A stretch of 44,114 nucleotides of DNA from a virus, in the IMG/VR virus record IMGVR_UViG_3300045988_076953; one strand, given 5' to 3'. The notes below the pieces were generated by a model that worked only from the letters and a program-made list of their open reading frames with translations, ran no database searches and was not told where the DNA came from. A program made the translations under genes and the position numbers. The first letter of the stretch is position 1. Each line of letters begins with the position of its first letter. Positions 19,012 to 38,377 of the stretch are shown here, one piece after another.

Positions 19012-19593
19012 TTACCACCACCCACTTTCGCTTGTAAATTCCGTGTCGATGTTTTCTGCCTGCCGGTTTTGCAGGCGTTCAAACGCCGTTTCAAACTCGT
19101 TGCGGTACGTTGTCGCAATCGCCAGATCATCGTCCTTGTACAGCTGGCTTGCCATGTACATAGGCACAAGCGCCGCCGCATCTTCCGGCAGGTCGATTTT
19201 TTGTGCGTCCGGCGTGTTCTCTGTGATTCTGGCAGGCTTTGCGTTGTAGTACACGAGCACAGATTCAATGCCTTTCGGAACCACCAGCAAATGCCCGCCC
19301 AGAAGTTTCAAGGACACCGGCCGGGGTTCGTCTCCATCCATACAGTATGTTTCAAAGTCTCCCACATTGAGGAAGTCAATGAGTTCATCTTCAAGATCAA
19401 ACGTTCTGGATTGCGCCGGGTCTTTCGTCAGCGTATCGTGCGAACGGATGTGCTTTCCGGCTTCCGTTGTGGCAATCATCTGGATTGCTTCGTTTGCGGC
19501 TTGCGGCATCGCGTCGATGTAATCCTCTGCGCCTTCATCCTTAGAGGTAAACATCTTCTGCAAGGTTGCGGTTTTGCATTCTCCCCACGTCAT
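19012..19593 (-). CDS. Head-tail adaptor/connector-like protein (tentative)
   Basis: ORF 19012..19593. Lies directly after the putative portal gene. Contains LVPMYMASQLYKDDDLAIATTYRNEFE. Confidence 0.4.
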   Translation of the reverse strand: MTWGECKTATLQKMFTSKDEGAEDYIDAMPQAANEAIQMIATTEAGKHIRSHDTLTKDPAQSRTFDLEDELIDFLNVGDFETYCMDGDEPRPVSLKLLGGHLLVVPKGIESVLVYYNAKPARITENTPDAQKIDLPEDAAALVPMYMASQLYKDDDLAIATTYRNEFETAFERLQNRQAENIDTEFTSESGWW

Positions 19594-21509
19594 ACGTCTG
19601 CCCCCTCCAAATGGTCGCTGTCAGCCATGTTCAGTTGTCCCATATCCATCTGCGCATCCGGCTGCATGGCGGCCTGCTGCATTTGCTGCTGCTCGTCAAT
19701 CTGCTGTTTGATTTCGGTTTTGACCTTGCCAGCGCCCGGGAATCCGTTATCCTCGAGATACGTCCAGAAGCGGTAGCTGGTGGTCAACTCTCCAATCGGG
19801 CCAAACGCACCTGCCTGATACTTCACGTCTGCCATATCCCACAGCCGTTCGCGGTTTGCGTCCATGTTCGGGGACGGGTCAACGCCAAAAATAAACTCAT
19901 CATCCCAGTACAGCTCACCGGCGGCATCCCGTTTCAGGAAATCCCACCGGTTGAAATGGGCGAACGTCTGCTCACCGCCGATTGCCGTGTAAGTCATCGG
20001 GTACGGTTGGTCAGCATAGGCCAGCATGTACTTGAAGAGCAGCTTGTACAGCCGCCCATACGCCTGATTCTTCATCTCGCGTTTGGACTGCAAACGGCCA
20101 GCCGCCTGCTGTGCAGCAAACTGCTTCGCGCTGCCGCTGGTTGCAGATGCATCGTACTTGCCCTGATACGAATCGTTAATGCCCAGCGTACTCTTGGCCC
20201 AGCTGTAATTGCTTTCCAGCATTTGCTGTTCGCGGCTTGTGTCGGGCTGAACATTGATAACAGAGATCAGCGCCTTTTCCGCCGGGTTTTTCAGCCGCAT
20301 GATTTTCAGCTCTTTGTCGCTGGTTTCAACCTGAACGCCTTGCGGAAGCGTAACATAGCTGCCGCCTTTGAGCAGCTTCTCTTCAATCTTCGTGCCAAAC
20401 TTCTTGATCGCGTTTTGCTGATCTTCAATCACATCAACGTCGCTCACGCCCAAGAAGCGGCCGAACATCCGCACATTGCTGCGGAGAATAACGGGAATTT
20501 CTTTCGGCTCGTAGTACGGGATTTGCGTGGGCACGTTTGGGCCGGGCATGGTAATAGCCACGCCTTCATCGTCCACCTGCGGGGTTCCGTCCGGGTTCAT
20601 CACAAGTTCGTCTTTACCCGGGGTGCTTGCCGCAACAGTTTCACCGCCAAAAATGGTGATGTCCTCGGTCAGCTCTTGCACATCCAGTGGGCCTTCCACA
20701 AACTTTTTGCTGCCGCACTCGCACACATCGCCGGACTTCGGGCGGCCGCATTTCGCGCACACTTTACCGCGCCGTTTCTGGCAGTTGTCCAAATCTTCCA
20801 GAGTTACGTCTCCGCACCAGCTGTACAGGCCAATACCGCCTTCATCGTTACGATAATACGCGATATTTTGAGTAACAATGCCACTTACAGAGCTCGGATT
20901 CTGCCCTCTGGCCGCCACATCATCCTCTGTTTCATCCTTGATTTCAACGCCGTACCGCCGTTCAAGGTAGCGTTTCGGCTGGCTTACAAGAATGAAAATG
21001 TACTCCATCTTGTCGATGTCGTACACGCCGGGCTGCGGAATAACCTGCTTCGGGTGGCGCTCTGTCAGCGTTACGTCGCCCAACATGCAGTGGTATCCGC
21101 CGTGGGGATCCCACTCAACGTGGAAAAAGTCGCCGCCCTGAATGGGGACGGTTCGCTCTTGCAGGTCGTTCAGCTCTTTCAGGTTGAGCTGCTTGCTCAG
21201 GTTCAGCAGCAGAGCCTCAATCTTTTTTGCAAGCTCTTTGTCCTCTTCGTGGATAGCCGTGACGCGGGGGGCGGGGATAGAGGAATCCACCTGGCTTTCG
21301 ATCAGCTCGTACACGATGTTGCGGACGTTGGTTGCCTTTTTTTCTGCGTCTGTACCATTTGCGCCACGAATGTTTTTATCGCCACGGTACAGTGCTTCGC
21401 GGGTATCCATAATGGTGCGGTCGTACTGCTTTCTTGCGTCATCCAGCCGACTTTGCCATTTCCCCCGCTTTGTGGCATCGTCAGCAGCGTGTTTCAGCTT
21501 CTCGAACAT
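19590..21509 (-). CDS. Portal protein (putative), with a small Cys4 insertion
   Basis: ORF 19590..21509, 639 aa. The N-terminal region ...VRNIVYELIESQVDSSIPAPRV... and the size are portal-like. Also contains CAKCGRPKSGDVCECG. Confidence 0.55.
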   Translation of the reverse strand: MFEKLKHAADDATKRGKWQSRLDDARKQYDRTIMDTREALYRGDKNIRGANGTDAEKKATNVRNIVYELIESQVDSSIPAPRVTAIHEEDKELAKKIEALLLNLSKQLNLKELNDLQERTVPIQGGDFFHVEWDPHGGYHCMLGDVTLTERHPKQVIPQPGVYDIDKMEYIFILVSQPKRYLERRYGVEIKDETEDDVAARGQNPSSVSGIVTQNIAYYRNDEGGIGLYSWCGDVTLEDLDNCQKRRGKVCAKCGRPKSGDVCECGSKKFVEGPLDVQELTEDITIFGGETVAASTPGKDELVMNPDGTPQVDDEGVAITMPGPNVPTQIPYYEPKEIPVILRSNVRMFGRFLGVSDVDVIEDQQNAIKKFGTKIEEKLLKGGSYVTLPQGVQVETSDKELKIMRLKNPAEKALISVINVQPDTSREQQMLESNYSWAKSTLGINDSYQGKYDASATSGSAKQFAAQQAAGRLQSKREMKNQAYGRLYKLLFKYMLAYADQPYPMTYTAIGGEQTFAHFNRWDFLKRDAAGELYWDDEFIFGVDPSPNMDANRERLWDMADVKYQAGAFGPIGELTTSYRFWTYLEDNGFPGAGKVKTEIKQQIDEQQQMQQAAMQPDAQMDMGQLNMADSDHLEGADV

Positions 21510-21571: not shown

Positions 21572-22582
21572 TTAGGCAGTCAGAGTAGTGCCGCCGGTCA
21601 CGCCGCCGCCGCACAGGGCGATGCAACGCCAGTTGTTGAAGCCAGCGCCGAAACGGGCGCGGCCACGGAACACGTTGGCGTCGGTGTTGGGGTCAATCTC
21701 GCTCTTGACGGTCAGGGCAACACGGTCAACCCAGGGCATACACAGATAGTCGTCCTTGAACTGGCTGTCCATCATCAGGAAGAAGGGCTTGCCGCCGATG
21801 GACTTGGGCAGATAGGGCCAGATCAGCACGTTCCACAGGCCGGCCTGGAAGTTCATTGCATTCTTGTTGCTCTCAGGGTCCAGGTCGCTGGACACGGCAG
21901 CCAGAACGGCACGCTTCAGGGAAGCCACGTTGGGAATGATGATGGTGTCGGGAGCGACGTTCAGCAGATTGCCGTCGTCGTCGGTGAAGCTCTGCATGGC
22001 CTCCTGAACCTGATCCAGAATGCTGGTGCTGAAATCAGCCTTGAAGAAGTTGCTCTGGGTCAGCTTGGTGCCCTTTGTGGCACTGGGGTGAGCGGTCGAG
22101 AACAGGGCCACGCCGTCAGCAGAAGCGGTGCTGTAGGTCTTGTTCTGAATCTTGACGGAAGTGCCAGTGCCACCGGCCAGCAGGGAAGCGGCGAACTTCT
22201 CACGAGTGCGGTTGTAGCTGGTGGAGAAGATACCGGCGCGGCTCTTGATCTTGCCGATCTTTGCATCCTCGATCATCTCCTGCGTAACCTCAAAGCTGGA
22301 CTTCCAGGTGGTAGGCTCAATGACCTTGGAGAAGCCTTCCTGCATACCAGTCTTGGGGTAAGCGCCATTCTCGCCCACGTCCTCGAAGTCACCCACGCTG
22401 GTCTCGTTGGTGTACTTCTCGGCGAAGTTGGTGGAACTTTCCATGTTGAAGATGTTGGAAATCAGGCTCTTCTCCTCGAACGCCTCAACGCCGCTCTCGA
22501 TCATCGCCTTGATGGGTTCTTGGCTCTTGCCGAACACGCTGTTGGCAACGCCGGAACCCTCAGAAAAAATGATGTTAGCCAT
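21572..22582 (-). CDS. Major capsid protein (HK97-fold type, putative)
   Basis: ORF 21572..22582, 336 aa. Strong RBS AAGGAGG. Preceded by scaffold-like and decoration-like genes and followed by an attenuator. Confidence 0.7.
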   Translation of the reverse strand: MANIIFSEGSGVANSVFGKSQEPIKAMIESGVEAFEEKSLISNIFNMESSTNFAEKYTNETSVGDFEDVGENGAYPKTGMQEGFSKVIEPTTWKSSFEVTQEMIEDAKIGKIKSRAGIFSTSYNRTREKFAASLLAGGTGTSVKIQNKTYSTASADGVALFSTAHPSATKGTKLTQSNFFKADFSTSILDQVQEAMQSFTDDDGNLLNVAPDTIIIPNVASLKRAVLAAVSSDLDPESNKNAMNFQAGLWNVLIWPYLPKSIGGKPFFLMMDSQFKDDYLCMPWVDRVALTVKSEIDPNTDANVFRGRARFGAGFNNWRCIALCGGGVTGGTTLTA

Positions 22583-25895: not shown

Positions 25896-27377
25896 TTAGA
25901 ACGGATCTCCGAACTTCTGAATCATGTACGCCTTTCCCTCATCGTCTGCGTTGTAGTAATCCTCCCACAGGTCAGATTCCCACGTGACGTGTTTCTTTGC
26001 TTGCGTGGCTTCTGCGGGTGCAGTCCACCAAACACAAAAATACCGCAAGCTATCCACGGAGTGCGTCAAGCTATGCGGTTCCTTCGCGTAAACGTCAGGT
26101 TTACGTTCGTCCTTTTGAATTTTCTGCAAACACCGAAGCAATGTTGGGGTCTTGTACATTGTCAGCCATGCTGTATTTGTCGCCGGGTCAATGCGGAACC
26201 ACTCTTTCATGGCCGCGCATCCGGCAGGGAAGTCCCGGCTCACCTGCACCAATTGAAGCCCTGCTTCAAGGAACAGCTGCGCCCGGCTCTTGCCGCTTTC
26301 CTGACTGCGCCCCCACAGGTCAGAGGGGGCCAGGAACAACTCAACCTCCTCGCCCTTCGACAGTTTCAAGATGGTTTCTGCCGCCGCGCCGATGGGCAAA
26401 TTGCTTTCGTTATACTCTTTGTACACACAGGCATGGCCTGTTACATCAATGTTTACCCAATGGACGCTCAGCATATCAAGGCCGTAGTCCATCACGCAAT
26501 AGCGCCTGCCCTTTGCGGGAAGTTTATCCACACAATGGGTTTCCTTCCTCACTTCGGGGAAGAACGCGCCGCCGGGGACTTCCAATGCCTGATCTACAGT
26601 TGCGGGGTATTCCTGATAGGTCTTATCTTCGCCCAGCGCGTTCAGCGTCCGTTTGTACCACGCTTCATCCCGGCGGGGGTCAGCGCTCCACGGCAAAAAC
26701 AACTTTGTGAACCCGTTGTCCGGGTTTGTGTAGATCTCCTCAAACAGCGTCCCGCGCTTGATTGTAGACAGACCAATGACCCGGCCGCCGGTTGGACGGT
26801 TGATGACAGGGAACGCTGCTTGCCAGATTTCTTCCGCGTACTGCTGGAACGCCCATTCGTCAATGATAATCAAGTCAGCCGTGAACGAACGACCGGCAGA
26901 GGGGGACGAAGGAAACGCTTTGAAAACGCCTTCCGGGCCGTCTGGCCATCGCACCCGCAATTCCAATGCGGATGCCTTAAACACAGGCCCGCTCCACCCG
27001 GCGGGTACAGCGCCCTCTTCCGCAATGAACTCTGGCATGTAGCGCAAAATCACGCCCATACGCCGCACAAGCTCTTTCGCCTCGTCCTCTGTTCTGGACA
27101 AGCCAACAATCGTTCGGCCCGTATTTAACGCCAAAAGTCGGCTTGCCTCAGCCAAGGCAAGCCATGTAAAACCAAGTTGCCGCGCTTTCAGCACAACAAT
27201 CAGCCGATCATTTGCGAATGCTTGCAAGGCTTTCTTCTGCCCGTCCCATAGCTTGAAGGGAACGATCAGTTCAGCTGCGTCCTTGTCCTCAATGTGGACA
27301 TACGTTTCCACGAAGTAGGCCGGATGCTCCATGCAGTATTTCGCTTCCGCTTTTCTTACGTCTGCAAATCCTGCCAT
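25896..27377 (-). CDS. terL: Terminase large subunit
   Basis: ORF 25896..27464. Walker-A-like LKARQLGFTW and Walker-B-like DLIIIDEWAF, with a C-terminal nuclease-like half. Start placed at MAGFADVRK (ATG at 27377). Confidence 0.8.
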   Translation of the reverse strand: MAGFADVRKAEAKYCMEHPAYFVETYVHIEDKDAAELIVPFKLWDGQKKALQAFANDRLIVVLKARQLGFTWLALAEASRLLALNTGRTIVGLSRTEDEAKELVRRMGVILRYMPEFIAEEGAVPAGWSGPVFKASALELRVRWPDGPEGVFKAFPSSPSAGRSFTADLIIIDEWAFQQYAEEIWQAAFPVINRPTGGRVIGLSTIKRGTLFEEIYTNPDNGFTKLFLPWSADPRRDEAWYKRTLNALGEDKTYQEYPATVDQALEVPGGAFFPEVRKETHCVDKLPAKGRRYCVMDYGLDMLSVHWVNIDVTGHACVYKEYNESNLPIGAAAETILKLSKGEEVELFLAPSDLWGRSQESGKSRAQLFLEAGLQLVQVSRDFPAGCAAMKEWFRIDPATNTAWLTMYKTPTLLRCLQKIQKDERKPDVYAKEPHSLTHSVDSLRYFCVWWTAPAEATQAKKHVTWESDLWEDYYNADDEGKAYMIQKFGDPF

Positions 27378-27508
27378 ACTTCTTCCTTTCCCTTGTGCGC
27401 AGGCCCATTGCAGGGCCTTACTGGGCGGAGGCTTTCCCGCTTGCCCATCTATTTGCACGCACACCCCGTTCCCGCCCTCCGGGCTTATCCTGTGCCCGGC
27501 TCACCCAT

Positions 27509-27582
27509 TGGTTGGGCTGGCAGGTGTCGAACCTGCTATGTGGGAGTCAAAGTCCCATGCCTTACCGTTTGGCCACAGCCCA
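27509..27582 (-). tRNA. tRNA-Gln (anticodon UUG)
   Basis: The reverse complement folds as TGGGCTG-TG-GCC..GGC-A-TGGGA-CTTTGAC-TCCCA-CATA-GCAGG-TTCGACA-CCTGC-CAGCCCA-A-CCA. 74 nt, with the U1-A72 pair typical of tRNA-Gln. Confidence 0.85.
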
Positions 27583-27690: not shown

Positions 27691-27766
27691 TGGAGCCGCC
27701 AGAAGGACTCGAACCCTCGGCCTGCTGCTTACAAGACAGCCGCTCTACCAACTGAGCTATGACGGC
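27691..27766 (-). tRNA. tRNA-Thr (anticodon UGU)
   Basis: The reverse complement is GCCGTCA-TA-GCTC-AGTTGGTA-GAGC-G-GCTGT-CTTGTAA-GCAGC-AGGCC-GAGGG-TTCGAGT-CCTTC-TGGCGGC-T-CCA. 76 nt. Confidence 0.85.
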
Positions 27767-28754: not shown

Positions 28755-29081
28755 TTATGTGTCTTGTCTTGCCTGCCTGATAGCCTCAGCCAGCAGCCGC
28801 GCTGCCGTCTGTGCCGGCGTCTCGCCGTCAGCCTCTAGGCCCTGGACTGCATCAGCTCTCAGGCTGAGCCGGATGCGGTCGCCGTCTTCGGTGGCCTGTG
28901 GCTGTGTGCCGTGGGCCATCCGTGCCCGGACTGCCTCCAGTACGTACCCCTGTAGGCTCTGCCCGGCTGCTGCTGCCGCCGCTCTGATGCTCTCGCCTTC
29001 AGGGCGCAGCGGCTTTATCATGATCTGATCACACTTTGCGTTATATTTTGCGTTACCTCGTCGTTTCGCTTCGCTTTGCAT
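28755..29081 (-). CDS. Ribbon-helix-helix (CopG/Arc-like) DNA-binding protein
   Basis: ORF 28755..29081. KYNAKCDQIMIKPLRPEGESIRAAAAAAGQSLQGYVLEAVRARM fits a beta-alpha-alpha RHH layout. First gene after the divergent promoter hub. Confidence 0.5.
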   Translation of the reverse strand: MQSEAKRRGNAKYNAKCDQIMIKPLRPEGESIRAAAAAAGQSLQGYVLEAVRARMAHGTQPQATEDGDRIRLSLRADAVQGLEADGETPAQTAARLLAEAIRQARQDT

Positions 29082-29102
29082 GGCTGTACCTCCTTATAGG
29101 AG

Positions 29103-29132
29103 AGTATACCACGCTCCGCCGGTTCCCGTCAA
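29103..29132 (-). promoter_or_regulatory. Sigma70-type promoter driving the RHH/terS/late direction
   Basis: Minus strand: TTGACG (29132-29127), 18-nt spacer, TGgTATACT (-10 at 29108-29103). Confidence 0.55.
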
Positions 29133-29198
29133 CGTGTACAAACTGCACAATTTCCCGTTAACCAATTTGTGAGATTCTCCAAACTTCCCGTTAACGGG
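29123..29198. repeat. Three direct copies of TTCCCGTYAAC (candidate operators); the third forms the palindrome CCCGTTAACGGG
   Basis: Copies at 29123-29133 (TTCCCGTCAAC), 29152-29162 and 29185-29195 (TTCCCGTTAAC). A degenerate inverted copy, CGTTAGCGGG, lies at 29211-29220 inside the + promoter spacer. Confidence 0.8.
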
Positions 29199-29227
29199 TT
29201 GACAACTTACACGTTAGCGGGTATACT
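29199..29227 (+). promoter_or_regulatory. Near-consensus sigma70 promoter for the + strand island, unit 1
   Basis: TTGACA (29199-29204), 17-nt spacer, TATACT (29222-29227). The first gene's RBS AAGGAGG lies at about 29267. Confidence 0.7.
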
Positions 29228-29279
29228 CTAGCCATAGCAAGCGACACAGGGCCGCAAGCAGAAGAGCAAGGAGGACGAC

Positions 29280-29618
29280 ATGAGCAAAGCACTTACCACC
29301 GATGATCTCATCAAAAAAATGGCGTGGCACGTAGCCCGCGAGGTAAAGCACTACAAGAGCGACTTTGACCTCGACAAAGAGGCGCTGTCCGAGGCGCTGG
29401 CTGCTGGCCGCTATGGCCAGTATATCTGGATTACTCGCACCTGTGGCACGTATCTCGTGCCGGTCGGCATCGCGGCCACAGACCCCGACCGGAGTGCCGA
29501 GGTGCTGGCAGTTATCCGGCGCGCATGGTCGGACGCCGAGCGCCGCGAGTACTGCATCACCCTGGGCCCCTGCAGCCACTCTTTCCAGCCCCTCCGGCAG
29601 AAGGAGGCGAGAGCATGA
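29280..29618 (+). CDS. Hypothetical protein (island gene 1)
   Basis: ORF 29280..29618 with RBS AAGGAGG. Confidence 0.6.
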   Translation: MSKALTTDDLIKKMAWHVAREVKHYKSDFDLDKEALSEALAAGRYGQYIWITRTCGTYLVPVGIAATDPDRSAEVLAVIRRAWSDAERREYCITLGPCSHSFQPLRQKEARA

Positions 29619-29827
29619 CGCTCTACTATATCAACTGGGACCGTGACGACTGGTCCCTGTGCAGCGTCCAGTCTGAGCACCTCGTCGAGATCTGGCCCGG
29701 CGCGTGGGTTGACTGCTCCGGCAGGATCCCCGGCCCGGTCCTCGATCGGCTATATACCACCGCAGACGGGGCGCTGCACCACAATCCGGCCCGTAGGTGG
29801 CCCGCGGCACAGGAGGTGCGCACATGA
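29615..29827 (+). CDS. Hypothetical protein (island gene 2)
   Basis: Internal ATG (29615) of ORF 29525..29827, preceded by AAGGAGG. Overlaps the upstream stop by 4 nt. Confidence 0.5.
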   Translation: MTLYYINWDRDDWSLCSVQSEHLVEIWPGAWVDCSGRIPGPVLDRLYTTADGALHHNPARRWPAAQEVRT

Positions 29828-29916
29828 GACTCACCCGCATGGAGTGCCTGGCGATCGGCTTTGGCTGGGGCGTATCGCTCCCCATGCTATGGCTGCACTG
29901 CCTGGGCATGATCTAA
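29824..29916 (+). CDS. 30-aa hydrophobic peptide (tentative)
   Basis: Hand translation: MRLTRMECLAIGFGWGVSLPMLWLHCLGMI. ATGA overlap with the upstream gene. Too short for the ORF track. Confidence 0.3.
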   Translation: MRLTRMECLAIGFGWGVSLPMLWLHCLGMI

Positions 29917-29988
29917 GACCCGCAAGGCCGACGGCATCCGCCGCCGCTGGTGCAAGTCCAGCCGCCCAGATGGGCGGGCGCTCATGGG
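29914..29988 (+). ncRNA. Structured intergenic RNA element, copy 1 (unknown function)
   Basis: TAAGACCCGCAAGGCCGACG..CCGCC[GCTGG-TGCAAGT-CCAGC][CGCCC-AGAT-GGGCG]GGCGC-TCATGGG. Homologous to 31805-31879, with compensatory stem changes. Confidence 0.5.
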
Positions 29989-30041
29989 CCCATTCACATC
30001 GACACAGCCGCCACGGCGGCACATCATAAGGAGGGTACACC

Positions 30042-30434
30042 ATGAAAGCTTATAGCGAGATCAAGGAAGATCTGGAAGCCAGAAAAGACCGCAGCGCATG
30101 GGGCAGAGGCGTCAACGCCTACGCCCTGGAGCTGCTGGAAGAACTCAGAGAGCGGGCAGCTTATGAGGGGCGCGACCCTAAACCGGGGAAAGAGTGCCGG
30201 GAGTGGATGCTGAACGGGGCGCAGAACTGGAATGAATATTTCTGGGGCGGCTCTGCCCTCATTTATAACGGTGACATTGCCGAAAGACTTTGCACCCCGT
30301 CCGAACTCAAGAAAACCCGCAACGGCGAACGCAGACCGAACAGCCGGGAAGAATGGTTAGACACTCAGGCAAGAGCACTATACCAGGCTTGTAACCGTGT
30401 AGCTTGCTTGTATAGCTCCATAGTGACGGAATAA
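30042..30434 (+). CDS. Hypothetical protein (island gene 4)
   Basis: ORF 30042..30434 with RBS AAGGAGGG. The conserved-looking motif SAWGRGVNAYALELLEEL is not assignable from memory. Confidence 0.65.
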   Translation: MKAYSEIKEDLEARKDRSAWGRGVNAYALELLEELRERAAYEGRDPKPGKECREWMLNGAQNWNEYFWGGSALIYNGDIAERLCTPSELKKTRNGERRPNSREEWLDTQARALYQACNRVACLYSSIVTE

Positions 30435-30451
30435 GGGAGGAAAAACAGACA

Positions 30452-30676
30452 ATGAAAAAGTACACACAGCAGGATTTGCGCCAGCTTGTAAGGCTTGGAG
30501 TTGCAGAGGACTACACCAACAAGCCCAGCGAATACGCCCAGACATTGAGAAGGCTTGAAAAGGTAGGCTATAGCACGGGTGTATATGGCTTGAATGGTGG
30601 CTTAGTGCAAGACCCGGAAACGGGTACATTGTACGCCATTATCGGACGCTGTAGTAATTTGTTCATCGTGTTTTGA
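30452..30676 (+). CDS. Hypothetical protein (island gene 5)
   Basis: ORF 30452..30676 with RBS GGGAGGAAAAA. Confidence 0.6.
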   Translation: MKKYTQQDLRQLVRLGVAEDYTNKPSEYAQTLRRLEKVGYSTGVYGLNGGLVQDPETGTLYAIIGRCSNLFIVF

Positions 30677-30798
30677 CCCCCGTTGCGGCGGGTATAAATA
30701 GCCAGTTAGGCCGCAAGCGTCCCGGCATTTTGCCGGGGGTCTGGAAAGTGTAGGCTTTCAAACCTGCACCACAGAAAGAAATATAGGAGGGTAAAATT

Positions 30799-31017
30799 AT
30801 GCTTTCGCTGAGTTTTCAAGCCCGTATTTTCCAGAACTACCACAGCGGGCAGGACTGCACCAACGGCAGAAAATACCGTTATACCGTTCAACGCAACCCG
30901 CTGGCGTTTGGGGCGTTGGTTTGGATTATGCGCCAGCCGTTGCGAGGTGGCTCTTGGGAATGGGTACAGCCTTTAGCGTTGAATATGCAATTCACGCCCC
31001 GCAATAGTGTTAGATAA
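30799..31017 (+). CDS. Hypothetical protein (island gene 6, tentative)
   Basis: ORF 30799..31017 with strong RBS TAGGAGGG. Unusual composition. Confidence 0.4.
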   Translation: MLSLSFQARIFQNYHSGQDCTNGRKYRYTVQRNPLAFGALVWIMRQPLRGGSWEWVQPLALNMQFTPRNSVR

Positions 31018-31096
31018 ACTTCACCACAGCCCCGGAAACGGCAAGTCGTCGCCCGCCGGGCCATGCAGGAGATTGCAGCGCTCAAAGCGTAACGCA

Positions 31097-31128
31097 ATAG
31101 GGAGATACGAAATCCCGTATCTCCCTAT
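31097..31128 (+). terminator. 13-bp perfect hairpin ending island unit 1
   Basis: ATAGGGAGATACG-aaatcc-CGTATCTCCCTAT. There is no long T-tract, so it could be a terminator or a processing site. Confidence 0.5.
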
Positions 31129-31248
31129 CTCTACATACTAAATATATCATATTTGCGATATATTTGGTAGTGTATCAGACTGTTTTCGGCTGTTGCATTT
31201 GCGGCAGCCCGCACAAAAAATAATCTCAAAATTTAGGCAAATTGCGAA

Positions 31249-31277
31249 TTGCACCACCACCCAATGAGTGGTATAGT
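31249..31277 (+). promoter_or_regulatory. Sigma70 promoter with extended -10 for island unit 2
   Basis: TTGCAC (31249-31254), 17-nt spacer, TGgTATAGT (-10 at 31272-31277). RBS CAGGAGGG precedes the ATG at 31321. Confidence 0.6.
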
Positions 31278-31320
31278 GTAGACAACGAAGCAAGCCGAGC
31301 AAAAACAGGAGGGCAAAACG

Positions 31321-31524
31321 ATGACGAAGATTAAAGACGGCTGGCACCGCATTTGCGGCGCTGATGTGTACGTAGAGAATGGCCGTGTCCTGCGCGGCTT
31401 GAAGAACGGCGGCACGGAAACCGCTTACCCCTACAAGCCGGCATCGAAGAAGTACGGCGGCGGCTGGGACATCGGCACCCCGTCCGTGTCAGCATTCCGG
31501 CGCGGTCCCTGGGTACTCATGTAA
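31321..31524 (+). CDS. Hypothetical protein (island gene 7)
   Basis: ORF 31321..31524. Confidence 0.6.
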   Translation: MTKIKDGWHRICGADVYVENGRVLRGLKNGGTETAYPYKPASKKYGGGWDIGTPSVSAFRRGPWVLM

Positions 31525-31543
31525 AGAGGAAGGAGAACAGACG

Positions 31544-31807
31544 ATGAAAAAAGCCGAGTTGAAAGACGTTGCCACCCGGTACGGGATGGGCATTATCCGC
31601 GAGGAAGTCACAAGCAAAGGCGTCGGGCTGTACCTCGTGACCGAGGAGGACATCCCGGAGCTGGATGCCCTAGCCAGCACACCCCCGTTTTCCGCAGCGC
31701 CGGGAGCGGTGGTCGCAACGAAAGAATACAGCCCGTGCGACAACACCCACACTTACCGCGTCTACTGCCCCTCAAACTGGTTTGACCTGTGGGGATGGGC
31801 AGACTAA
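31544..31807 (+). CDS. Hypothetical protein (island gene 8)
   Basis: ORF 31544..31807 with RBS GAAGGAGAA. Confidence 0.6.
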   Translation: MKKAELKDVATRYGMGIIREEVTSKGVGLYLVTEEDIPELDALASTPPFSAAPGAVVATKEYSPCDNTHTYRVYCPSNWFDLWGWAD

Positions 31808-31879
31808 GGCCCGCAAGGCCGACGCTCACGCGCCGCCGGTGCAAGCCCGGCCACCCCTTACGGGGTGGGCGCTCATGGG
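31805..31879 (+). ncRNA. Structured intergenic RNA element, copy 2 (unknown function)
   Basis: TAAGGCCCGCAAGGCCGACG..GCGCC[GCCGG-TGCAAGC-CCGGC][CACCCC-TTAC-GGGGTG]GGCGC-TCATGGG. Confidence 0.5.
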
Positions 31880-31903
31880 TACACAAAGAAGGAGGAAAGA
31901 ACC

Positions 31904-32323
31904 ATGAAAACAGAAATCGTCGTCTCCATTGGGGGCGCTGTCAAGCGTTCGCCCAACCGCGAACCGGACGAGTACGCCTACTTCGCTCAGGTGCGCGGTT
32001 TTTCGTTCGCTGCGCTTCCCGTACCTGACGGGTGGCAATGGAGCATTGGCTTCCAGGGGGACGCGCCGCACCGCAAAAGAGTGACAATCTCCCTGCCGGA
32101 CTTCATCTTTAAGGACAAGGTATGGGAGTTGCATTCCGAGTACCGCACGGACGACGGGCTCGGCGACCTTGTTGTAATCACATGCGACCCCATCCGCGTG
32201 TGTGGAAACGTTGAGGCCGCAATAGACGCAGCGATCAAAACGATCGTTGTTTCCGCTCCCACAAAGTCTGGTAAGCGGGAAAACATCCCGTTTACCATCG
32301 AGGCAGTATCACCTATCTGGTGA
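31904..32323 (+). CDS. Hypothetical protein (island gene 9)
   Basis: Internal ATG (31904) of ORF 31865..32323, preceded by GAAGGAGGAAA. Confidence 0.6.
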   Translation: MKTEIVVSIGGAVKRSPNREPDEYAYFAQVRGFSFAALPVPDGWQWSIGFQGDAPHRKRVTISLPDFIFKDKVWELHSEYRTDDGLGDLVVITCDPIRVCGNVEAAIDAAIKTIVVSAPTKSGKRENIPFTIEAVSPIW

Positions 32324-32387
32324 TGCGTCGTCCCCCCCGTGCGGGGGACGTGGATTGAAACAAGATATCAGCAGGAGGAAATCAATA

Positions 32388-32705
32388 ATGTGGAACAAAT
32401 CTGAACTCTTCGCAATGGCTCAAGAGCAGCCGAAGGAAATCTTTAAAAGCAATGTAACCCTGAGCATCCCGGACAACGCGCCGGGCTGTGTTGATCTCGA
32501 CGCAGAAGCCGAACGCTTGTCCCGCTTTTGGGACGTTGCGCACATGACTGTGCGGGAACTCGCAGAAGCCACCGGAATGAGCCAATCTGCCTTTGCCCGG
32601 GCTGCTTGCATCCCTCTGCGTACCATGCAAAACTGGTGTGGGTCACAGCGAAATTGCCCGGATTATATCCGCTTTTTGTTGGCGGAGCATTTCGGGCTGA
32701 TCTAA
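32388..32705 (+). CDS. HTH-containing small protein (island gene 10)
   Basis: Internal ATG (32388) of ORF 32247..32705, after CAGGAGGAAA. MTVRELAEATGMSQSAFARAACIPLRTMQNW is HTH-like. Confidence 0.55.
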   Translation: MWNKSELFAMAQEQPKEIFKSNVTLSIPDNAPGCVDLDAEAERLSRFWDVAHMTVRELAEATGMSQSAFARAACIPLRTMQNWCGSQRNCPDYIRFLLAEHFGLI

Positions 32706-32755
32706 AGTGAGGCGCGGAGTTGTCCCGCGCCTCTTGTCAAAAAGGAGGTATACCC

Positions 32756-33490
32756 ATGCCGAAGGTCCAAAGAAAATACGAATTTACCGGCGAAACGAAA
32801 GAGTTTTCCGGTCACACCCTGCACCGCATCCGCGCAGTGCGTGATTTTACCACATCGTCAGGCCCCGTAAAGTCAGGCTGTCTTGGCGGCTGGATTGAAA
32901 GCGAGAAAAACCTCGACCAAGACTATACCGCATGGGTTGCAGACGAGGCCATGGTTTTCGAGGCTGCGTCGGTCTCTGAAGAGGCGTGTGTGTCCGGTCA
33001 TGCGCAAGTCTTTGGCGAGGCCATTGTAACAGGTGGCGCAGAAGTCACCGACAACGCCCGCATTTTCGGCACCGCGTTTATACTGGACTCCGTGAAAATT
33101 TACGGAGATACCCAATTTTGCGGGGATACGATGGTATCCGGCGCAGTGTATGACCACGGCATCGTGATGCATGCGCCCGAACGGGACGTGAAGTTGTGGT
33201 TTATCCGGGAACCGGGTGATGTATGGAATGGCGAATGCTCTCGCGACGCAATCACCGATGACGGGCGTTACATGGAGATCACATGCAAAGCCCCAGACTT
33301 AAAGCGAGAACCGGGCGAAAGTGAGGACGAGTACGAGGCCCGCTTGCTTGACGCCACAGAATGGGAAACTCCCGTCCGAGTTACTGACATCCGCAAAGAC
33401 GGAAAGCGGACTGTCGTTGCAGAAAATGGCAACGCAACATTTTCTCTTCCGCGCTCAGGCATCATCGTATATACCCCAGATGACGACTAA
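32756..33490 (+). CDS. Left-handed beta-helix (hexapeptide-repeat, YdcK-like) protein with a C-terminal extension
   Basis: Internal ATG (32756) of ORF 32720..33490, after AAAGGAGG. HTLHRIRAVRDF...GCLGGWIESEKNL, then repeating A.V...A.V.G.A.V units. Confidence 0.55.
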   Translation: MPKVQRKYEFTGETKEFSGHTLHRIRAVRDFTTSSGPVKSGCLGGWIESEKNLDQDYTAWVADEAMVFEAASVSEEACVSGHAQVFGEAIVTGGAEVTDNARIFGTAFILDSVKIYGDTQFCGDTMVSGAVYDHGIVMHAPERDVKLWFIREPGDVWNGECSRDAITDDGRYMEITCKAPDLKREPGESEDEYEARLLDATEWETPVRVTDIRKDGKRTVVAENGNATFSLPRSGIIVYTPDDD

Positions 33491-33497
33491 TAACAAA

Positions 33498-33540
33498 AGA
33501 GGTCACACCCTTCCGGATGTGGCCTCTTGCTTTTTATTTA
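33498..33540. terminator. Bidirectional rho-independent terminator between convergent units
   Basis: AGAGGTCACA-cccttccgga-TGTGGCCTCT, with TGCTTTTTATTT on + and TTTTGTTATTA on -. Confidence 0.75.
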
Positions 33541-36848: not shown

Positions 36849-37197
36849 CGTCGCTCACCTCCACTGTCACTCCGTCCCGCCCATCGTAGGCGAAACAATC
36901 TTCAAAACCGACGACCCAACGATTGTTATCGTTGGGCAAGAAGCCCGCGGCTTGCATCCCATCAAGCACAAACTTTTTCCCAAATGCCACGTTGTCTTTG
37001 TCCCTTCGCCGTGTCCTCTCGTGCCACGTAAAGCGGATTTTAACCGGCCCGGTTACAGGTGGCAGCCCCCGAAAGTAGAGGGCCACCGCCTGCGTGTAGT
37101 CGGACTTGACTTTTCCACCTGCGTACCGATTTCGGCGGCAAGCGTTTGTGTACTCATTTGCCCCCGGCAGGCGAAAGGGGAGATCAACTGTAATCAT
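36841..37197 (-). CDS. rusA: RusA-family Holliday junction resolvase
   Basis: ORF 36841..37197. Typical size, with RRRDKDNVAFGKKFVLDGM...NDNNRWV acidic catalytic-type motifs. Confidence 0.7.
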   Translation of the reverse strand: MITVDLPFRLPGANEYTNACRRNRYAGGKVKSDYTQAVALYFRGLPPVTGPVKIRFTWHERTRRRDKDNVAFGKKFVLDGMQAAGFLPNDNNRWVVGFEDCFAYDGRDGVTVEVSDVE

Positions 37198-38377
37198 TCA
37201 CCGCCACCTCCTCAAACCGCTGCTGGCTTCCAACGAAATTGAACGGCAAATCGCCGGTAATACCGTCTTTGTTTTTTGCAATGCGAACGGTGTATTTGCC
37301 CGTCTCCTTGTCGTTGTGCAGCAGAATGATGTTGTCCGCATCCTGCTCAATCTGGCCGCTGTCGCGCAAGTTTTCCATCGTGGGCAGGTCGCCAGCCCCG
37401 GCGCGGTTCAGCTGGCACAACGCCACAACGCAGATTTTGGTTTGCTGGGCAAAGTCGTGCAAATCCTTCGACACCATTGTGGCCCGCTCGTAGCTGTCCT
37501 TCCCACGGGAAGGGATAAGTCCCAAATAGTCGATGAAAACCACATCAAACTTCTGCGCTTGCGCGTCCATTTTCAGCCACTGTACACCGCGCCCGTTGGC
37601 TTCCACGATTTCGAGCGGGCAAGTGGCAAAGTGGTCAAGCGCCCGCAACTGAATCTCGTTTGCGTTGTCCATCTGCACCGCATAACGGCGCACACTGTCG
37701 TATTGCAGCCGCATGATGTTGGTGCAAATCCTCATGCTGAGACGTTCTTTTGACGTCTCGTAGCTGTAATAGCCGACTCTCTTGCCGTTCTGCGCGATCT
37801 GCCGGGCTACCTGCAAGGTGAATGCCGTCTTGCCGCTGCTGGGCCGTCCGCCGATCACCACAAAGTCACCCGGCCCCCATCCGGTGTAACGGTCAAGCCG
37901 CCCGAACCCGGTGGCGAAGTAGGGCGGCCGCCCGCCAGCCATGGCCCGCATGAACCACGTGGCACAATCCATGGCGTTGAAGCGCCCGGTGCTCTGCTTG
38001 CCTGCCAACATATGCGCCAGTTCCTGCGCCGCGCTCTCCACATCATCTTTGGAGCATCCGCTGCTTGCCAGCTTCAGGCCCACAGCCTGTGCCCGCTGCA
38101 CCAGCGTGTGATCCTTCACGGCGGCAATGTATGCGGGGTAGTTGCTGTAAGCAATTGGGGCTTCAGCGCACTCTGCAAGCAGCTCCTTGCCCATCACAGA
38201 GGCTGCGCTTACCGTGTCCAACTTACGGTGCCTTGCCCACAGGCTGGCCAGCTTGTCGTACACCTCGCCAAGTTCCGGGTCGCTAAAGTCGTCACCCGCG
38301 ATAGCGTCCAGGATGTATGGCTGTGCCTTCTGGTTTACAAGCAGGCAGCCAATGACAGCTTTTTCCGCCTCGATCAT
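37184..38377 (-). CDS. dnaB: DnaB-like replicative helicase
   Basis: ORF 37184..38377. N-terminal AEKAVIGCLL. Walker A GGRPSSGKTAF. Walker B VVFIDYLGLI. RecA-like C-terminal domain. Confidence 0.85.
   Translation of the reverse strand: MIEAEKAVIGCLLVNQKAQPYILDAIAGDDFSDPELGEVYDKLASLWARHRKLDTVSAASVMGKELLAECAEAPIAYSNYPAYIAAVKDHTLVQRAQAVGLKLASSGCSKDDVESAAQELAHMLAGKQSTGRFNAMDCATWFMRAMAGGRPPYFATGFGRLDRYTGWGPGDFVVIGGRPSSGKTAFTLQVARQIAQNGKRVGYYSYETSKERLSMRICTNIMRLQYDSVRRYAVQMDNANEIQLRALDHFATCPLEIVEANGRGVQWLKMDAQAQKFDVVFIDYLGLIPSRGKDSYERATMVSKDLHDFAQQTKICVVALCQLNRAGAGDLPTMENLRDSGQIEQDADNIILLHNDKETGKYTVRIAKNKDGITGDLPFNFVGSQQRFEEVAVNDYS

What the first reader, a model, noticed from the sequence alone, without database searches (positions are those of the whole stretch)
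29914..31879. Twice-repeated intergenic RNA element whose stems differ only by compensatory changes (candidate novel structured RNA)
Two ~75-nt intergenic segments on the + strand (29914-29988 and 31805-31879) are clearly homologous.
- Both start at the TAA stop of an upstream ORF and end about 25-55 nt before the next RBS.
- There is exactly one copy per transcription unit of the + island.
- Shared blocks: TAAGRCCCGCAAGGCCGACG at the 5' end and GGCGCTCATGGG at the 3' end.
- Between these blocks, two adjacent hairpins are enclosed by a short closing helix (CCGCC or GCGCC pairing with GGCGC), giving a compact three-way junction.
- Hairpin 1 is GCTGG-TGCAAGT-CCAGC in copy 1 and GCCGG-TGCAAGC-CCGGC in copy 2 (a T:A pair becomes C:G).
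- Hairpin 2 is CGCCC-AGAT-GGGCG in copy 1 and CACCCC-TTAC-GGGGTG in copy 2 (a G:C pair becomes A:T, and the loop is not conserved).

Pairing is preserved while sequence changes, which is the signature of selection on RNA structure. I do not recognise the motif as any known riboswitch or leader.
Basis: seen in the sequence. Interest (0 to 1): 0.72.

Follow-up and report, generated by a model that had tools for sequence, protein, structure and literature searches.

The report
Two twister-sister self-cleaving ribozymes in a phage
The twice-repeated intergenic element is not a new RNA: both copies are textbook twister-sister self-cleaving ribozymes (with a pistol ribozyme between them), sitting between small genes of a gut-phage operon, which is the usual setting for this known ribozyme class.

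Summary
Two homologous ~75-nt + strand segments lie at the stated coordinates, and their stems differ by compensatory changes. Both copies are full-length hits to Rfam RF02681, Twister-sister ribozyme: 85.3 and 76.6 bits against a gathering score of 34. Every catalytic-core nucleotide defined by the four-way-junction crystal structure is present: L1 GCAAG / GCUC^AU and loop SL4 GUGCAAG(U/C)C. A pistol ribozyme (RF02679, 63.9 bits) lies between them at 30678-30744. The window is a tailed phage. The same ribozyme subtype occurs in more than 119 IMG/VR viral contigs and 71 genome stretches, mostly gut Oscillospiraceae, with up to 6 copies per array. In 113 distinct instances the published P1-P5 fold pairs in 98.7% of cells, and 10 of 20 pairs show two-sided changes. 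Predicted cleavage sites are C29983|A29984 and C31874|A31875. The likely role, which is inferred, is cutting a polycistronic phage transcript between cistrons. This arrangement was already described for clustered prophage ribozymes. One side observation: related phages swap the genes around these ribozymes while keeping the ribozymes. Verdict: already known, low interest.

The parts
29915..29994 (+). Twister-sister ribozyme copy 1 (TS1), full-length Rfam RF02681 match.
- P1: 29919-29921 / 29986-29988
- L1 5' strand GCAAG: 29922-29926
- P2: 29927-29929 / 29977-29979
- P3: 29932-29934 / 29941-29943
- P4: 29946-29949 / 29959-29962, with loop SL4 GUGCAAGUC at 29950-29958
- P5: 29963-29968 / 29971-29976
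- L1 3' strand GCUCAU: 29980-29985
   Evidence: 76.6 bits (gathering score 34), E = 5.6e-16, model positions 1-81 of 81. Helix coordinates were read from the cmscan alignment. The core residues match G5-G9, G29-C37 and G59-U64 of the crystallised four-way-junction ribozyme (PMC5660989).
29983..29984 (+). Predicted TS1 scissile bond, C29983|A29984. It is equivalent to C62-A63.
   Evidence: Mapped from the conserved GCUC^AU strand of L1 (PMC5660989). Cleavage itself was not tested.
31806..31885 (+). Twister-sister ribozyme copy 2 (TS2), full-length Rfam RF02681 match.
- P1: 31809-31812 / 31877-31880 (the outer pair is G-U)
- L1 5' strand GCAAG: 31813-31817
- P2: 31818-31820 / 31868-31870
- P3: 31823-31825 / 31830-31832
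- P4: 31835-31838 / 31848-31851, with loop SL4 GUGCAAGCC at 31839-31847
- P5: 31852-31857 / 31862-31867
- L1 3' strand GCUCAU: 31871-31876
   Evidence: 85.3 bits (gathering score 34), E = 1.8e-18, model positions 1-81 of 81. Sequence.
31874..31875 (+). Predicted TS2 scissile bond, C31874|A31875.
   Evidence: Mapped as for TS1. Not tested.
30678..30744 (+). Pistol ribozyme lying between the two twister-sister copies. It starts 2 nt after the TGA stop (30674-30676) of the 74-aa ORF. The predicted scissile bond is G30739|U30740, the conserved GU between P2 and the 3' strand of P3.
   Evidence: RF02679, 63.9 bits (gathering score 34.5), E = 1.8e-09, model positions 1-68 of 68. The G53-U54 cleavage site lies in the P2-P3 junction according to PMC6154101.
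29824..29916 (+). 30-aa hydrophobic ORF that ends at the TAA immediately 5' of TS1. Its ATG overlaps the TGA of the preceding 70-aa ORF (29615-29827) as ATGA.
   Evidence: There is an AGGAGG 7 nt upstream of the ATG. Coding status is inferred.
30042..30676 (+). Gene block between TS1 and the pistol ribozyme: a 130-aa ORF (30042-30434) and a 74-aa ORF (30452-30676). Both are hypothetical proteins.
   Evidence: No Pfam, PHROG or NCBIfam match. The 130-aa protein has 45-56% identical hypothetical homologues in human gut phages.
31321..31807 (+). Gene block upstream of TS2: a 67-aa ORF (31321-31524, phrog_33937) and an 87-aa ORF (31544-31807) whose TAA stop abuts TS2.
31904..32323 (+). First cistron downstream of TS2 (139 aa, hypothetical). 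After cleavage its mRNA would begin with a 5'-OH at A31875, 29 nt before the ATG.
   Evidence: The homologous gene in L011 follows a hammerhead type II ribozyme instead of a twister-sister ribozyme.

Best explanation
Both repeats are twister-sister (TS) self-cleaving ribozymes of the four-way-junction type. They are encoded on the + strand in intercistronic spacers of an accessory-gene island of a tailed phage. The host is probably a gut Oscillospiraceae bacterium.

**How it works**
1. Once transcribed, each RNA folds into two helical stacks, P1-L1-P2-P3 and P4-P5.
2. Loop SL4 (GUGCAAGYC) docks into internal loop L1 (GCAAG / GCUCAU).
3. With Mg2+, the 2'-OH of the C in GCUC^AU attacks its own 3' phosphate.
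4. The RNA is cut at C29983|A29984 and C31874|A31875.

**Products**
- The upstream mRNA keeps almost the whole compact ribozyme as a structured 3' end carrying a 2',3'-cyclic phosphate.
- The downstream mRNA starts with a 5'-OH, 58 nt (TS1) or 29 nt (TS2) before the next start codon.
- The pistol ribozyme cuts at G30739|U30740 and also stays on the upstream fragment.
- Together the three ribozymes would cut the island's polycistronic transcripts into single-gene or two-gene mRNAs. The stability and translation of neighbouring cistrons would then be uncoupled.

**Shown versus inferred**
- Shown here: family membership, an intact catalytic core, the fold with covariation, and intercistronic placement.
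- Established for the class but not for these copies: self-cleavage and the cleavage site.
- Inferred: the operon-processing role.
For: - **Family match:** one search gives full-length RF02681 hits of 85.3 and 76.6 bits (gathering score 34), plus RF02679 Pistol at 63.9 bits.
- **Core residues:** (PMC5660989) define the conserved residues G5 C6 A7 A8 G9, G29-C37 and G59 C60 U61 C62 A63 U64, and show that A63U abolishes cleavage. All of these residues are present in both copies. Copy 1 has an SL4 identical to the crystallised RNA.
- **Fold:**, on 113 distinct homologues, finds the P1-P5 model paired in 98.7% of cells, against 31-52% for slid controls. Ten of 20 pairs show two-sided changes.
- **Phage context:** one search identifies terminase, portal, major head protein and DnaB-like helicase.
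- **Distribution:** searches find the subtype in at least 119 viral contigs and 71 genome stretches, mostly Oscillospiraceae. 23 of the 119 viral loci hold 2-5 copies, and genome stretches hold up to 6.
- **Placement:**, 108 of 119 non-redundant instances have an ORF of at least 40 codons ending 0-16 nt upstream (random positions: 11.6%). 83 of 119 also have an RBS plus ORF within 110 nt downstream (random positions: 3.1%).
- **Precedent:** PMC3088659 reports multiple ribozymes flanking single genes or short gene blocks of varying identity in prophages, with all ribozymes cleaving in ~2-kb in vitro transcripts. PMC6765202 proposes processing of polycistronic transcripts and notes that the motif class appears interchangeable.
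- **Interchangeability seen here:** relative L011 has a hammerhead type II ribozyme directly before the homologue of the gene that follows TS2 in the window.
Against: - No cleavage assay or transcript data exist for these copies.
- Thermodynamic folding alone is uninformative in this GC-rich sequence: z-scores are -0.35 and -1.36, and the minimum-energy fold of copy 2 uses a non-native helix.
- P1 is short, 3 bp plus an A-C mismatch in copy 1. That is the commonest state in the family but could slow cleavage.
- The biological purpose of bacterial and phage TS ribozymes has never been demonstrated (PMC6765202). No newer functional study was found.
- The homologue set was collected with a pattern that fixes the conserved blocks. 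The invariance of P2, L1 and SL4 is therefore built in by construction.
Confidence: 0.9

Rival explanations
1. The conserved ~70-bp ribozyme DNA acts mainly, or additionally, as the junction of exchangeable gene cassettes. "Gene + ribozyme" modules are shuffled between phages by recombination at or within the ribozyme sequence. RNA cleavage would then serve to make each cassette's expression independent of its neighbours. This reading does not exclude self-cleavage.
For: - **L006 and L011:** these relatives are 88-91% identical to the window on both sides of the island. In L006 the island genes have no detectable DNA similarity to the window's. Yet TS1 is 100% identical over 70 nt in both relatives, and the L006 copy of TS2 is 89% identical.
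- **L011:** it carries an extra ~1-kb insert of two ORFs exactly between TS2 and the next gene. The insert ends with a hammerhead type II ribozyme. It also holds a truncated TS-like 5' half, ACCCGCAAGG, right after an ORF stop.
- **Alignment breakpoints:** in an all-against-all comparison of +/-1-kb windows around 271 TS instances, 59% of internal left alignment ends fall at a TS 5' edge (2.6% of bases). 47% of right ends fall within 45 nt after a TS 3' edge (4.3% of bases).
Against: - Phage mosaic junctions fall at gene boundaries in any case, and the ribozymes sit at gene boundaries.
- The test windows were chosen around ribozymes, and ribozyme homology itself extends alignments up to its far edge. 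The enrichment is therefore inflated. Against an estimated ~5 gene boundaries per window it is only about 2-fold.
- No recombinase or site-specific machinery is associated with the ribozymes.
- Sequence conservation follows the catalytic RNA core and base-pair covariation, not a DNA-site pattern.
- No TS half-site remnants occur in the window beyond chance.
- Variable gene identity around clustered prophage ribozymes was already reported in PMC3088659.
Confidence: 0.2
2. One reading: a previously undescribed structured cis-regulatory RNA, such as a riboswitch or leader-like three-way junction, repeated once per transcription unit.
For: The position is intergenic, compensatory changes are present, and the element lies upstream of an RBS.
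Against: - Both copies are full-length, high-scoring matches to a curated ribozyme family.
- The proposed three-way junction helix lacks support.
- The conserved unpaired nucleotides are exactly the TS catalytic core.
- The distance to the RBS is not conserved: 39 nt for copy 1 against 10 nt for copy 2.
Confidence: 0.01
3. The copies are decaying or recently duplicated relics with no current activity.
For: Copy 1 has an A-C mismatch at the outer P1 position. No expression data are available.
Against: - All core residues are intact.
- The two copies belong to different sublineages, each closer to copies in other phages than to the other. Copy 1 is 100% identical to the L006 and L011 copies, and copy 2 is 89-90% identical to theirs, while copy 1 against copy 2 is about 77-80%.
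- Every stem difference between the two copies is compensatory.
- Their scores of 76.6 and 85.3 bits fall within the 73-90.6 bit range of 50 other instances.
Confidence: 0.03
4. Cleavage at successive ribozymes produces RNA segments with a 5'-OH and a 2',3'-cyclic phosphate. These are then ligated into circular or spliced RNAs, by a host RtcB-type ligase or by ribozyme reversal, rather than simply serving as separate mRNAs. One such segment would be A29984-G30739, 756 nt.
For: The end chemistry of the predicted fragments fits this. The idea was raised for clustered prophage hammerheads in PMC3088659.
Against: That study looked for spliced or circular products and found none. Nothing in the window points to a ligase or to circular RNA.
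Confidence: 0.04

Closest known systems
Twister-sister (TS) self-cleaving ribozyme, Rfam RF02681, four-way-junction form. Discovered by Weinberg et al. 2015 (Nat Chem Biol); structure in Zheng et al. 2017 (PMC5660989).
   Same: - The P1-L1-P2 stack is joined to P3, P4/SL4 and P5.
- L1 is GCAAG / GCUCAU, including the C-A cleavage step.
- SL4 is GUGCAAG(U/C)C, and the junction residues are GA and CC.
- The setting is phage-associated, next to another ribozyme class.
- Both copies are full-length covariance-model matches far above the gathering score.
   Different: Nothing of substance. Copy 1 has an A-C mismatch at the outermost P1 position. The P3 and P5 loops differ, as they do throughout the family. 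Activity of these particular copies is untested.
Clustered hammerhead, twister, pistol and hatchet ribozymes flanking genes in prophages (Perreault et al. 2011, PMC3088659; review PMC6765202).
   Same: - Several self-cleaving ribozymes lie within about 2 kb on one strand.
- Each sits in an intergenic spacer and flanks single genes or short blocks of small hypothetical genes.
- The identity of those genes varies between related elements.
- Different ribozyme classes occupy equivalent positions.
   Different: Here the cluster is TS-pistol-TS rather than hammerheads. A related phage (L011) adds a hammerhead type II ribozyme.
Twister ribozyme
   Same: Helical connectivity is similar, and the P4 loop and internal-loop nucleotides are related, which is the origin of the name. 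Both are found in the same genomic neighbourhoods.
   Different: Twister needs two pseudoknots and cleaves on the opposite strand of the P1-P2 loop (PMC6154101). No twister model matched the window even at E <= 1.
Pistol ribozyme, Rfam RF02679
   Same: The element at 30678-30744 is a full-length match with the conserved G-U cleavage step. It is typical of Firmicutes phage contexts (PMC6154101).
   Different: It is a different fold from the element in the finding, and it belongs to the same ribozyme cluster.

Membership tests
Twister-sister ribozyme (RF02681) | Covariance-model score at or above the curated gathering score, over the full model length | tested here: met
   85.3 bits (31806-31885) and 76.6 bits (29915-29994) against a gathering score of 34. 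Model positions 1-81 of 81, not truncated.
Twister-sister ribozyme (RF02681) | Internal loop L1 between P1 and P2 with conserved GCAAG on the 5' strand and GCUCAU on the 3' strand. This includes the C-A cleavage step and the essential A63. | tested here: met
   sequence: 29922-29926 and 29980-29985 in copy 1, 31813-31817 and 31871-31876 in copy 2. Residue roles are taken from PMC5660989.
Twister-sister ribozyme (RF02681) | P4 hairpin with the conserved SL4 loop GUGCAAG(U/C)C, which docks into L1 (contacts T1 and T2) | tested here: met
   29950-29958 is GUGCAAGUC, identical to G29-C37 of the crystallised RNA. 31839-31847 is GUGCAAGCC, which matches the Rfam consensus. The docking itself cannot be tested here.
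Twister-sister ribozyme (RF02681) | Helices P1, P2, P3, P4 and P5 forming a three- or four-way junction, supported by covariation | tested here: met
   113 distinct sequences: 98.7% of cells paired. Two-sided changes occur in P1 (1 pair), P3 (2 pairs), P4 (1 pair) and P5 (6 pairs). P2 is invariant, which is uninformative and was fixed by the search pattern. Between the two window copies, P3, P4 and P5 each carry compensatory changes.
Twister-sister ribozyme (RF02681) | [quoted passage not shown] | not testable with these tools
   Needs in vitro transcription and cleavage assays, or mapping of RNA ends.
Twister-sister ribozyme (RF02681) | Typical genomic neighbourhood: phage or prophage genes and other self-cleaving ribozyme classes nearby | tested here: met
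   Phage structural and replication genes. A pistol ribozyme lies 684 nt downstream of TS1. A hammerhead type II ribozyme is present in relative L011.
Pistol ribozyme (RF02679), neighbouring element | Covariance-model score at or above the gathering score, and the conserved G-U cleavage step in the P2-P3 junction | tested here: met
   63.9 bits against 34.5, model positions 1-68 of 68, with GU at 30739-30740. Cleavage-site definition from PMC6154101.
Twister ribozyme | A match to the twister covariance models (double-pseudoknot fold) | tested here: not met
   No twister family hit in the window, even in the permissive scan at E <= 1.
   pair 28-77 forms in only 38 of 113 sequences, with no two-sided changes in that helix. 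Column 28 covaries with column 19 (P3) instead.

The most novel reading that the evidence does not exclude
In phages of gut Oscillospiraceae, small self-cleaving ribozymes (TS, pistol, hammerhead) mark the boundaries of portable accessory-gene cassettes. On this reading, ribozyme and gene move together. The conserved ~70-bp ribozyme DNA supplies the homology at which cassettes are swapped or inserted. The RNA cut insulates each newly arrived cassette from its neighbours' transcript context. In layout this would resemble an integron array, but it would rest on homologous exchange and RNA self-cleavage rather than attC sites and an integrase.
Probability: 0.2. Interest if true: 0.55.

Novelty: already known. 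Interest (0 to 1): 0.15.

Why it matters
As found, it matters little. It adds two more twister-sister ribozymes and one pistol ribozyme to a class with hundreds of known examples, in the expected phage setting. It does show that an Rfam scan should come before any claim of a new RNA.

The residual value lies in the open question of what these phage ribozymes are for.
- This locus and its two close relatives, L006 and L011, offer a compact natural experiment. The flanks are identical and the ribozymes are conserved, but the genes between them are swapped and a different ribozyme class sits at an equivalent site.
- At family level, 91% of instances begin within 16 nt of an upstream stop codon. 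This fits intercistronic processing and hints that translation termination could interfere with ribozyme folding.
- Both points are testable and bear on a function that has been unresolved since 2011-2015.

Tried and rejected
- **GenBank phage DNA search** of the island 29200-33500 (blastn) found no match, so no annotated relative was available.
- **Protein family scans** of the ten island proteins (Pfam, NCBIfam, PHROGs) gave no informative function. The only results were unknown-function PHROGs, an HTH-like regulator hint for 32388-32705, and a sub-threshold YdcK-like repeat for 32756-33490. A tblastn of the 130-aa protein found only hypothetical proteins in gut phages.
- **Single-sequence folding** gave non-significant z-scores, and the minimum-energy fold of copy 2 adopts a non-native helix. 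I rejected this as evidence either way.
- **Search for extra TS half-sites** in the window found nothing beyond chance.
- **Permissive Rfam scan** at E <= 1 found no further ribozymes in the window.
- **The discovery paper** (Weinberg et al. 2015) is not in the held library. The class definition was taken from the structure paper and from reviews.
- **Cleavage strand.** A review cites the site as C13-A14 of construct TS-1, which at first suggested the 5' strand of L1. The crystal-structure numbering and the cyPhyRNA-seq paper show the site is on the 3' strand, GCUC^AU, and my assignment was corrected accordingly.
- **Literature searches** for a demonstrated function of phage TS ribozymes found none.
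- **Breakpoint histogram** is kept only as suggestive evidence, because of ascertainment bias.
Full report
**1. Observation**

The two segments are present as described.
- Copy 1 is TAAGACCCGCAAGGCCGACGG...GGGCGCTCATGGG at 29914-29988.
- Copy 2 is TAAGGCCCGCAAGGCCGACGC...GGGCGCTCATGGG at 31805-31879.
- The 14-mer CCCGCAAGGCCGAC and the 13-mer GGGCGCTCATGGG each occur exactly twice in the 44-kb window at 0 mismatches. Both are on the + strand, and the two blocks are 57 nt apart in both copies.
- Each copy begins at the TAA stop of a + strand ORF. For copy 1 this is a 30-aa ORF (29824-29916) translationally coupled to a 70-aa ORF. For copy 2 it is an 87-aa ORF (31544-31807).

**2. Identity**

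A scan of the whole window against Rfam 15 at gathering thresholds gave five hits:
- Twister-sister ribozyme RF02681 at 31806-31885: 85.3 bits, E = 1.8e-18.
- Twister-sister ribozyme RF02681 at 29915-29994: 76.6 bits, E = 5.6e-16. The gathering score is 34, and both hits span model positions 1-81 of 81.
- Pistol ribozyme RF02679 at 30678-30744: 63.9 bits against a gathering score of 34.5.
- Two tRNAs on the - strand.

A permissive scan at E <= 1 added no further ribozyme.

**3. Anatomy against the solved structure**

The crystal structure of a four-way-junction twister-sister ribozyme (Zheng et al. 2017, PMC5660989) defines the following:
- P1, then internal loop L1 (G5 C6 A7 A8 G9 opposite G59 C60 U61 C62 A63 U64), then P2.
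- A junction joining P2, P3, P4 and P5.
- Loop SL4 (G29 U30 G31 C32 A33 A34 G35 U36 C37), which docks into L1.
- Cleavage between C62 and A63.
- The A63U mutation abolishes activity, and G5A nearly does.

Both window copies carry all of these residues:
- GCAAG at 29922-29926 and 31813-31817.
- GCUCAU at 29980-29985 and 31871-31876.
- SL4 as GUGCAAGUC (29950-29958, identical to the crystallised RNA) and GUGCAAGCC (31839-31847, the Rfam consensus).

The predicted scissile bonds are therefore C29983|A29984 and C31874|A31875. A review cites the site as C13-A14 of construct TS-1. The structure numbering, and the statement that the short fragment of TS is the 3' one (PMC8782182), place the site on the 3' strand of L1.

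The pistol ribozyme's conserved G-U step in the P2-P3 junction (PMC6154101) maps to G30739|U30740.

**4. Fold tested on homologues**

- The genome hits are mostly gut Oscillospiraceae: Oscillibacter, Dysosmobacter, Colidextribacter, Pseudoflavonifractor, Faecalibacterium, Gemmiger and Angelakisella.
- 23 of the 119 viral loci carry 2-5 copies. Genome stretches carry up to 6 within 4-8 kb.
- Fifty instances re-scanned with Rfam scored 73-90.6 bits, so the window copies are ordinary members.

I aligned 113 distinct instances, including both window copies, and counted pairs.
- The published P1-P5 structure pairs in 98.7% of cells, against 31-52% when partners are slid. Ten of 20 pairs show two-sided changes.
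- Examples: P1 outer pair AU 73 / GC 17 / GU 8 / CG 4; P3 pair GC 72 / CG 38 / UA 2; P4 pair UA 82 / CG 29; all six P5 pairs vary on both sides.
Its only variable pair forms in 38 of 113 sequences, with no two-sided change, and that column covaries with P3 instead.

Two caveats apply.
- The search pattern fixed P2, L1 and SL4, so their invariance is built in by construction.
- Single-sequence folding is uninformative in this GC-rich RNA, with z-scores of -0.35 and -1.36.

**5. Context**

- The window is a tailed phage. It encodes a large terminase (25896-27464, - strand), portal (19590-21509, -), major head protein (21572-22582, -) and DnaB-like helicase (37184-38377, -).
- The ribozymes lie in a + strand island of small hypothetical genes, about 29280-33490. 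The island is bounded by divergent promoter-like sites near 29100-29230 and a convergent hairpin near 33500.
- None of the island genes has an informative family match.
- All three ribozymes start 1-2 nt after the stop codon of the upstream ORF and precede an RBS.
- This placement is a property of the family. 108 of 119 non-redundant instances have an ORF of at least 40 codons ending 0-16 nt upstream, against 11.6% at random positions. 83 of 119 also have an RBS plus ORF within 110 nt downstream, against 3.1%.

**6. Mechanism and role**

[quoted passage not shown] It is not tested for these copies.

Both TS and pistol cut near their 3' ends. Each upstream mRNA would therefore retain the folded ribozyme at its 3' end. 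Each downstream mRNA would begin with a short 5'-OH leader:
- 58 nt before ATG 30042 (TS1).
- 59 nt before ATG 30799 (pistol).
- 29 nt before ATG 31904 (TS2).

The most likely role is processing polycistronic phage transcripts into one- or two-gene mRNAs, which would uncouple the stability and translation of neighbours. This was proposed for clustered prophage hammerheads, which flank single genes or short blocks of varying identity and all cleave in ~2-kb in vitro transcripts (PMC3088659). It was also proposed for bacterial ribozymes generally (PMC6765202). The role remains inferred. I found no later functional study.

**7. Side observation: mosaicism**

- Two IMG/VR relatives, L006 and L011, are 88-91% identical to the window on both sides of the island.
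- Inside the island, the L006 genes show no DNA similarity to the window's. TS1 is nevertheless 100% identical over 70 nt in both relatives, and the L006 copy of TS2 is 89% identical.
- L011 shares the TS2 block. It then has an extra ~1 kb with two ORFs, a truncated TS-like 5' half after one stop codon, and a hammerhead type II ribozyme. Similarity to the window resumes immediately after that hammerhead.
- In an all-against-all comparison of +/-1-kb windows around 271 TS instances, 59% of internal left alignment ends fall at a TS 5' edge, and 47% of right ends fall just after a TS 3' edge.
- This fits "gene + ribozyme" modules. The test is biased, however: windows were chosen around ribozymes, ribozyme homology extends alignments, and gene boundaries are junctions in any case. 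Varying gene identity around such ribozymes is already in the literature. I keep this as the most novel reading not excluded, at about 0.2 probability.

**8. Verdict**

The elements are ordinary members of the twister-sister class in their ordinary setting, alongside a pistol ribozyme. Novelty: already known. Interest: low.

Noticed in passing
window 30678-30744 (+): A pistol self-cleaving ribozyme (RF02679, 63.9 bits against a gathering score of 34.5) lies between the two twister-sister copies. It starts 2 nt after the TGA stop of the 74-aa ORF, and its predicted cut is G30739|U30740. The island therefore holds three ribozymes of two classes within 2 kb.
   Followed up: partly
window 28887-33483, compared with L006 4015-7899 and L011 3699-7320: The + strand island is mosaic between phages that are otherwise 88-91% identical. 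The genes are replaced, while TS1 stays 100% identical over 70 nt and TS2 stays 89-90% identical. Across 271 TS instances, alignment breakpoints pile up at ribozyme edges.
   Followed up: partly
L011 6302-7321: A relative carries an extra two-ORF insert right after its TS2. The insert ends with a hammerhead type II ribozyme (7258-7321, 59.6 bits). The sequence ACCCGCAAGG at about 6971-6980, just after an ORF stop, looks like a truncated TS 5' half.
   Followed up: partly
window 27509-27582 and 27691-27766 (-): Two phage-encoded tRNAs, tRNA-Gln(TTG) and tRNA-Thr(TGT), lie between the small + strand island and the large terminase gene. Both are conserved in relatives L006 and L011.
   Followed up: partly
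window 27467-27540 (-): A sub-threshold match to the D12-methyl RNA motif (RF02950, 51.7 bits against a gathering score of 57, E = 1.3e-06) lies immediately upstream of the large terminase gene and overlaps the tRNA-Gln call. It may be a real divergent member, or an artefact of the tRNA.
   Followed up: no
window 31097-31128 and 31136-31169 (+): A perfect 13-bp inverted repeat (ATAGGGAGATACG / CGTATCTCCCTAT, 6-nt loop) is followed by a second AT-rich 13-bp inverted repeat. Both sit in the only non-ribozyme island segment conserved with L006 (72%) and L011 (90%). A promoter-like TTGCAC-17-TATAGT lies downstream at 31249-31277. This is likely the terminator or operator and promoter that separate the two units.
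   Followed up: no
window 30009-30022 (+): A GC hairpin, GCCGCC-AC-GGCGGC, lies between the TS1 cleavage site and the RBS of the 130-aa ORF. After cleavage it would sit near the 5' end of the downstream mRNA and could act as a 5' stabiliser.
   Followed up: no
family level: L001-L119: About 91% of TS instances begin within 16 nt of the stop codon of an upstream ORF. Often the stop is fused to P1, as in TGACCC. A terminating ribosome would therefore cover the 5' strands of P1, L1 and P2, so translation could be coupled to ribozyme folding.
   Followed up: partly
window 4495-11229 (-): A very large 2244-aa ORF lies in the structural module. Its only match is a weak unknown-function PHROG. It is presumably a tail, tape-measure or host-interaction protein.
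   Followed up: no
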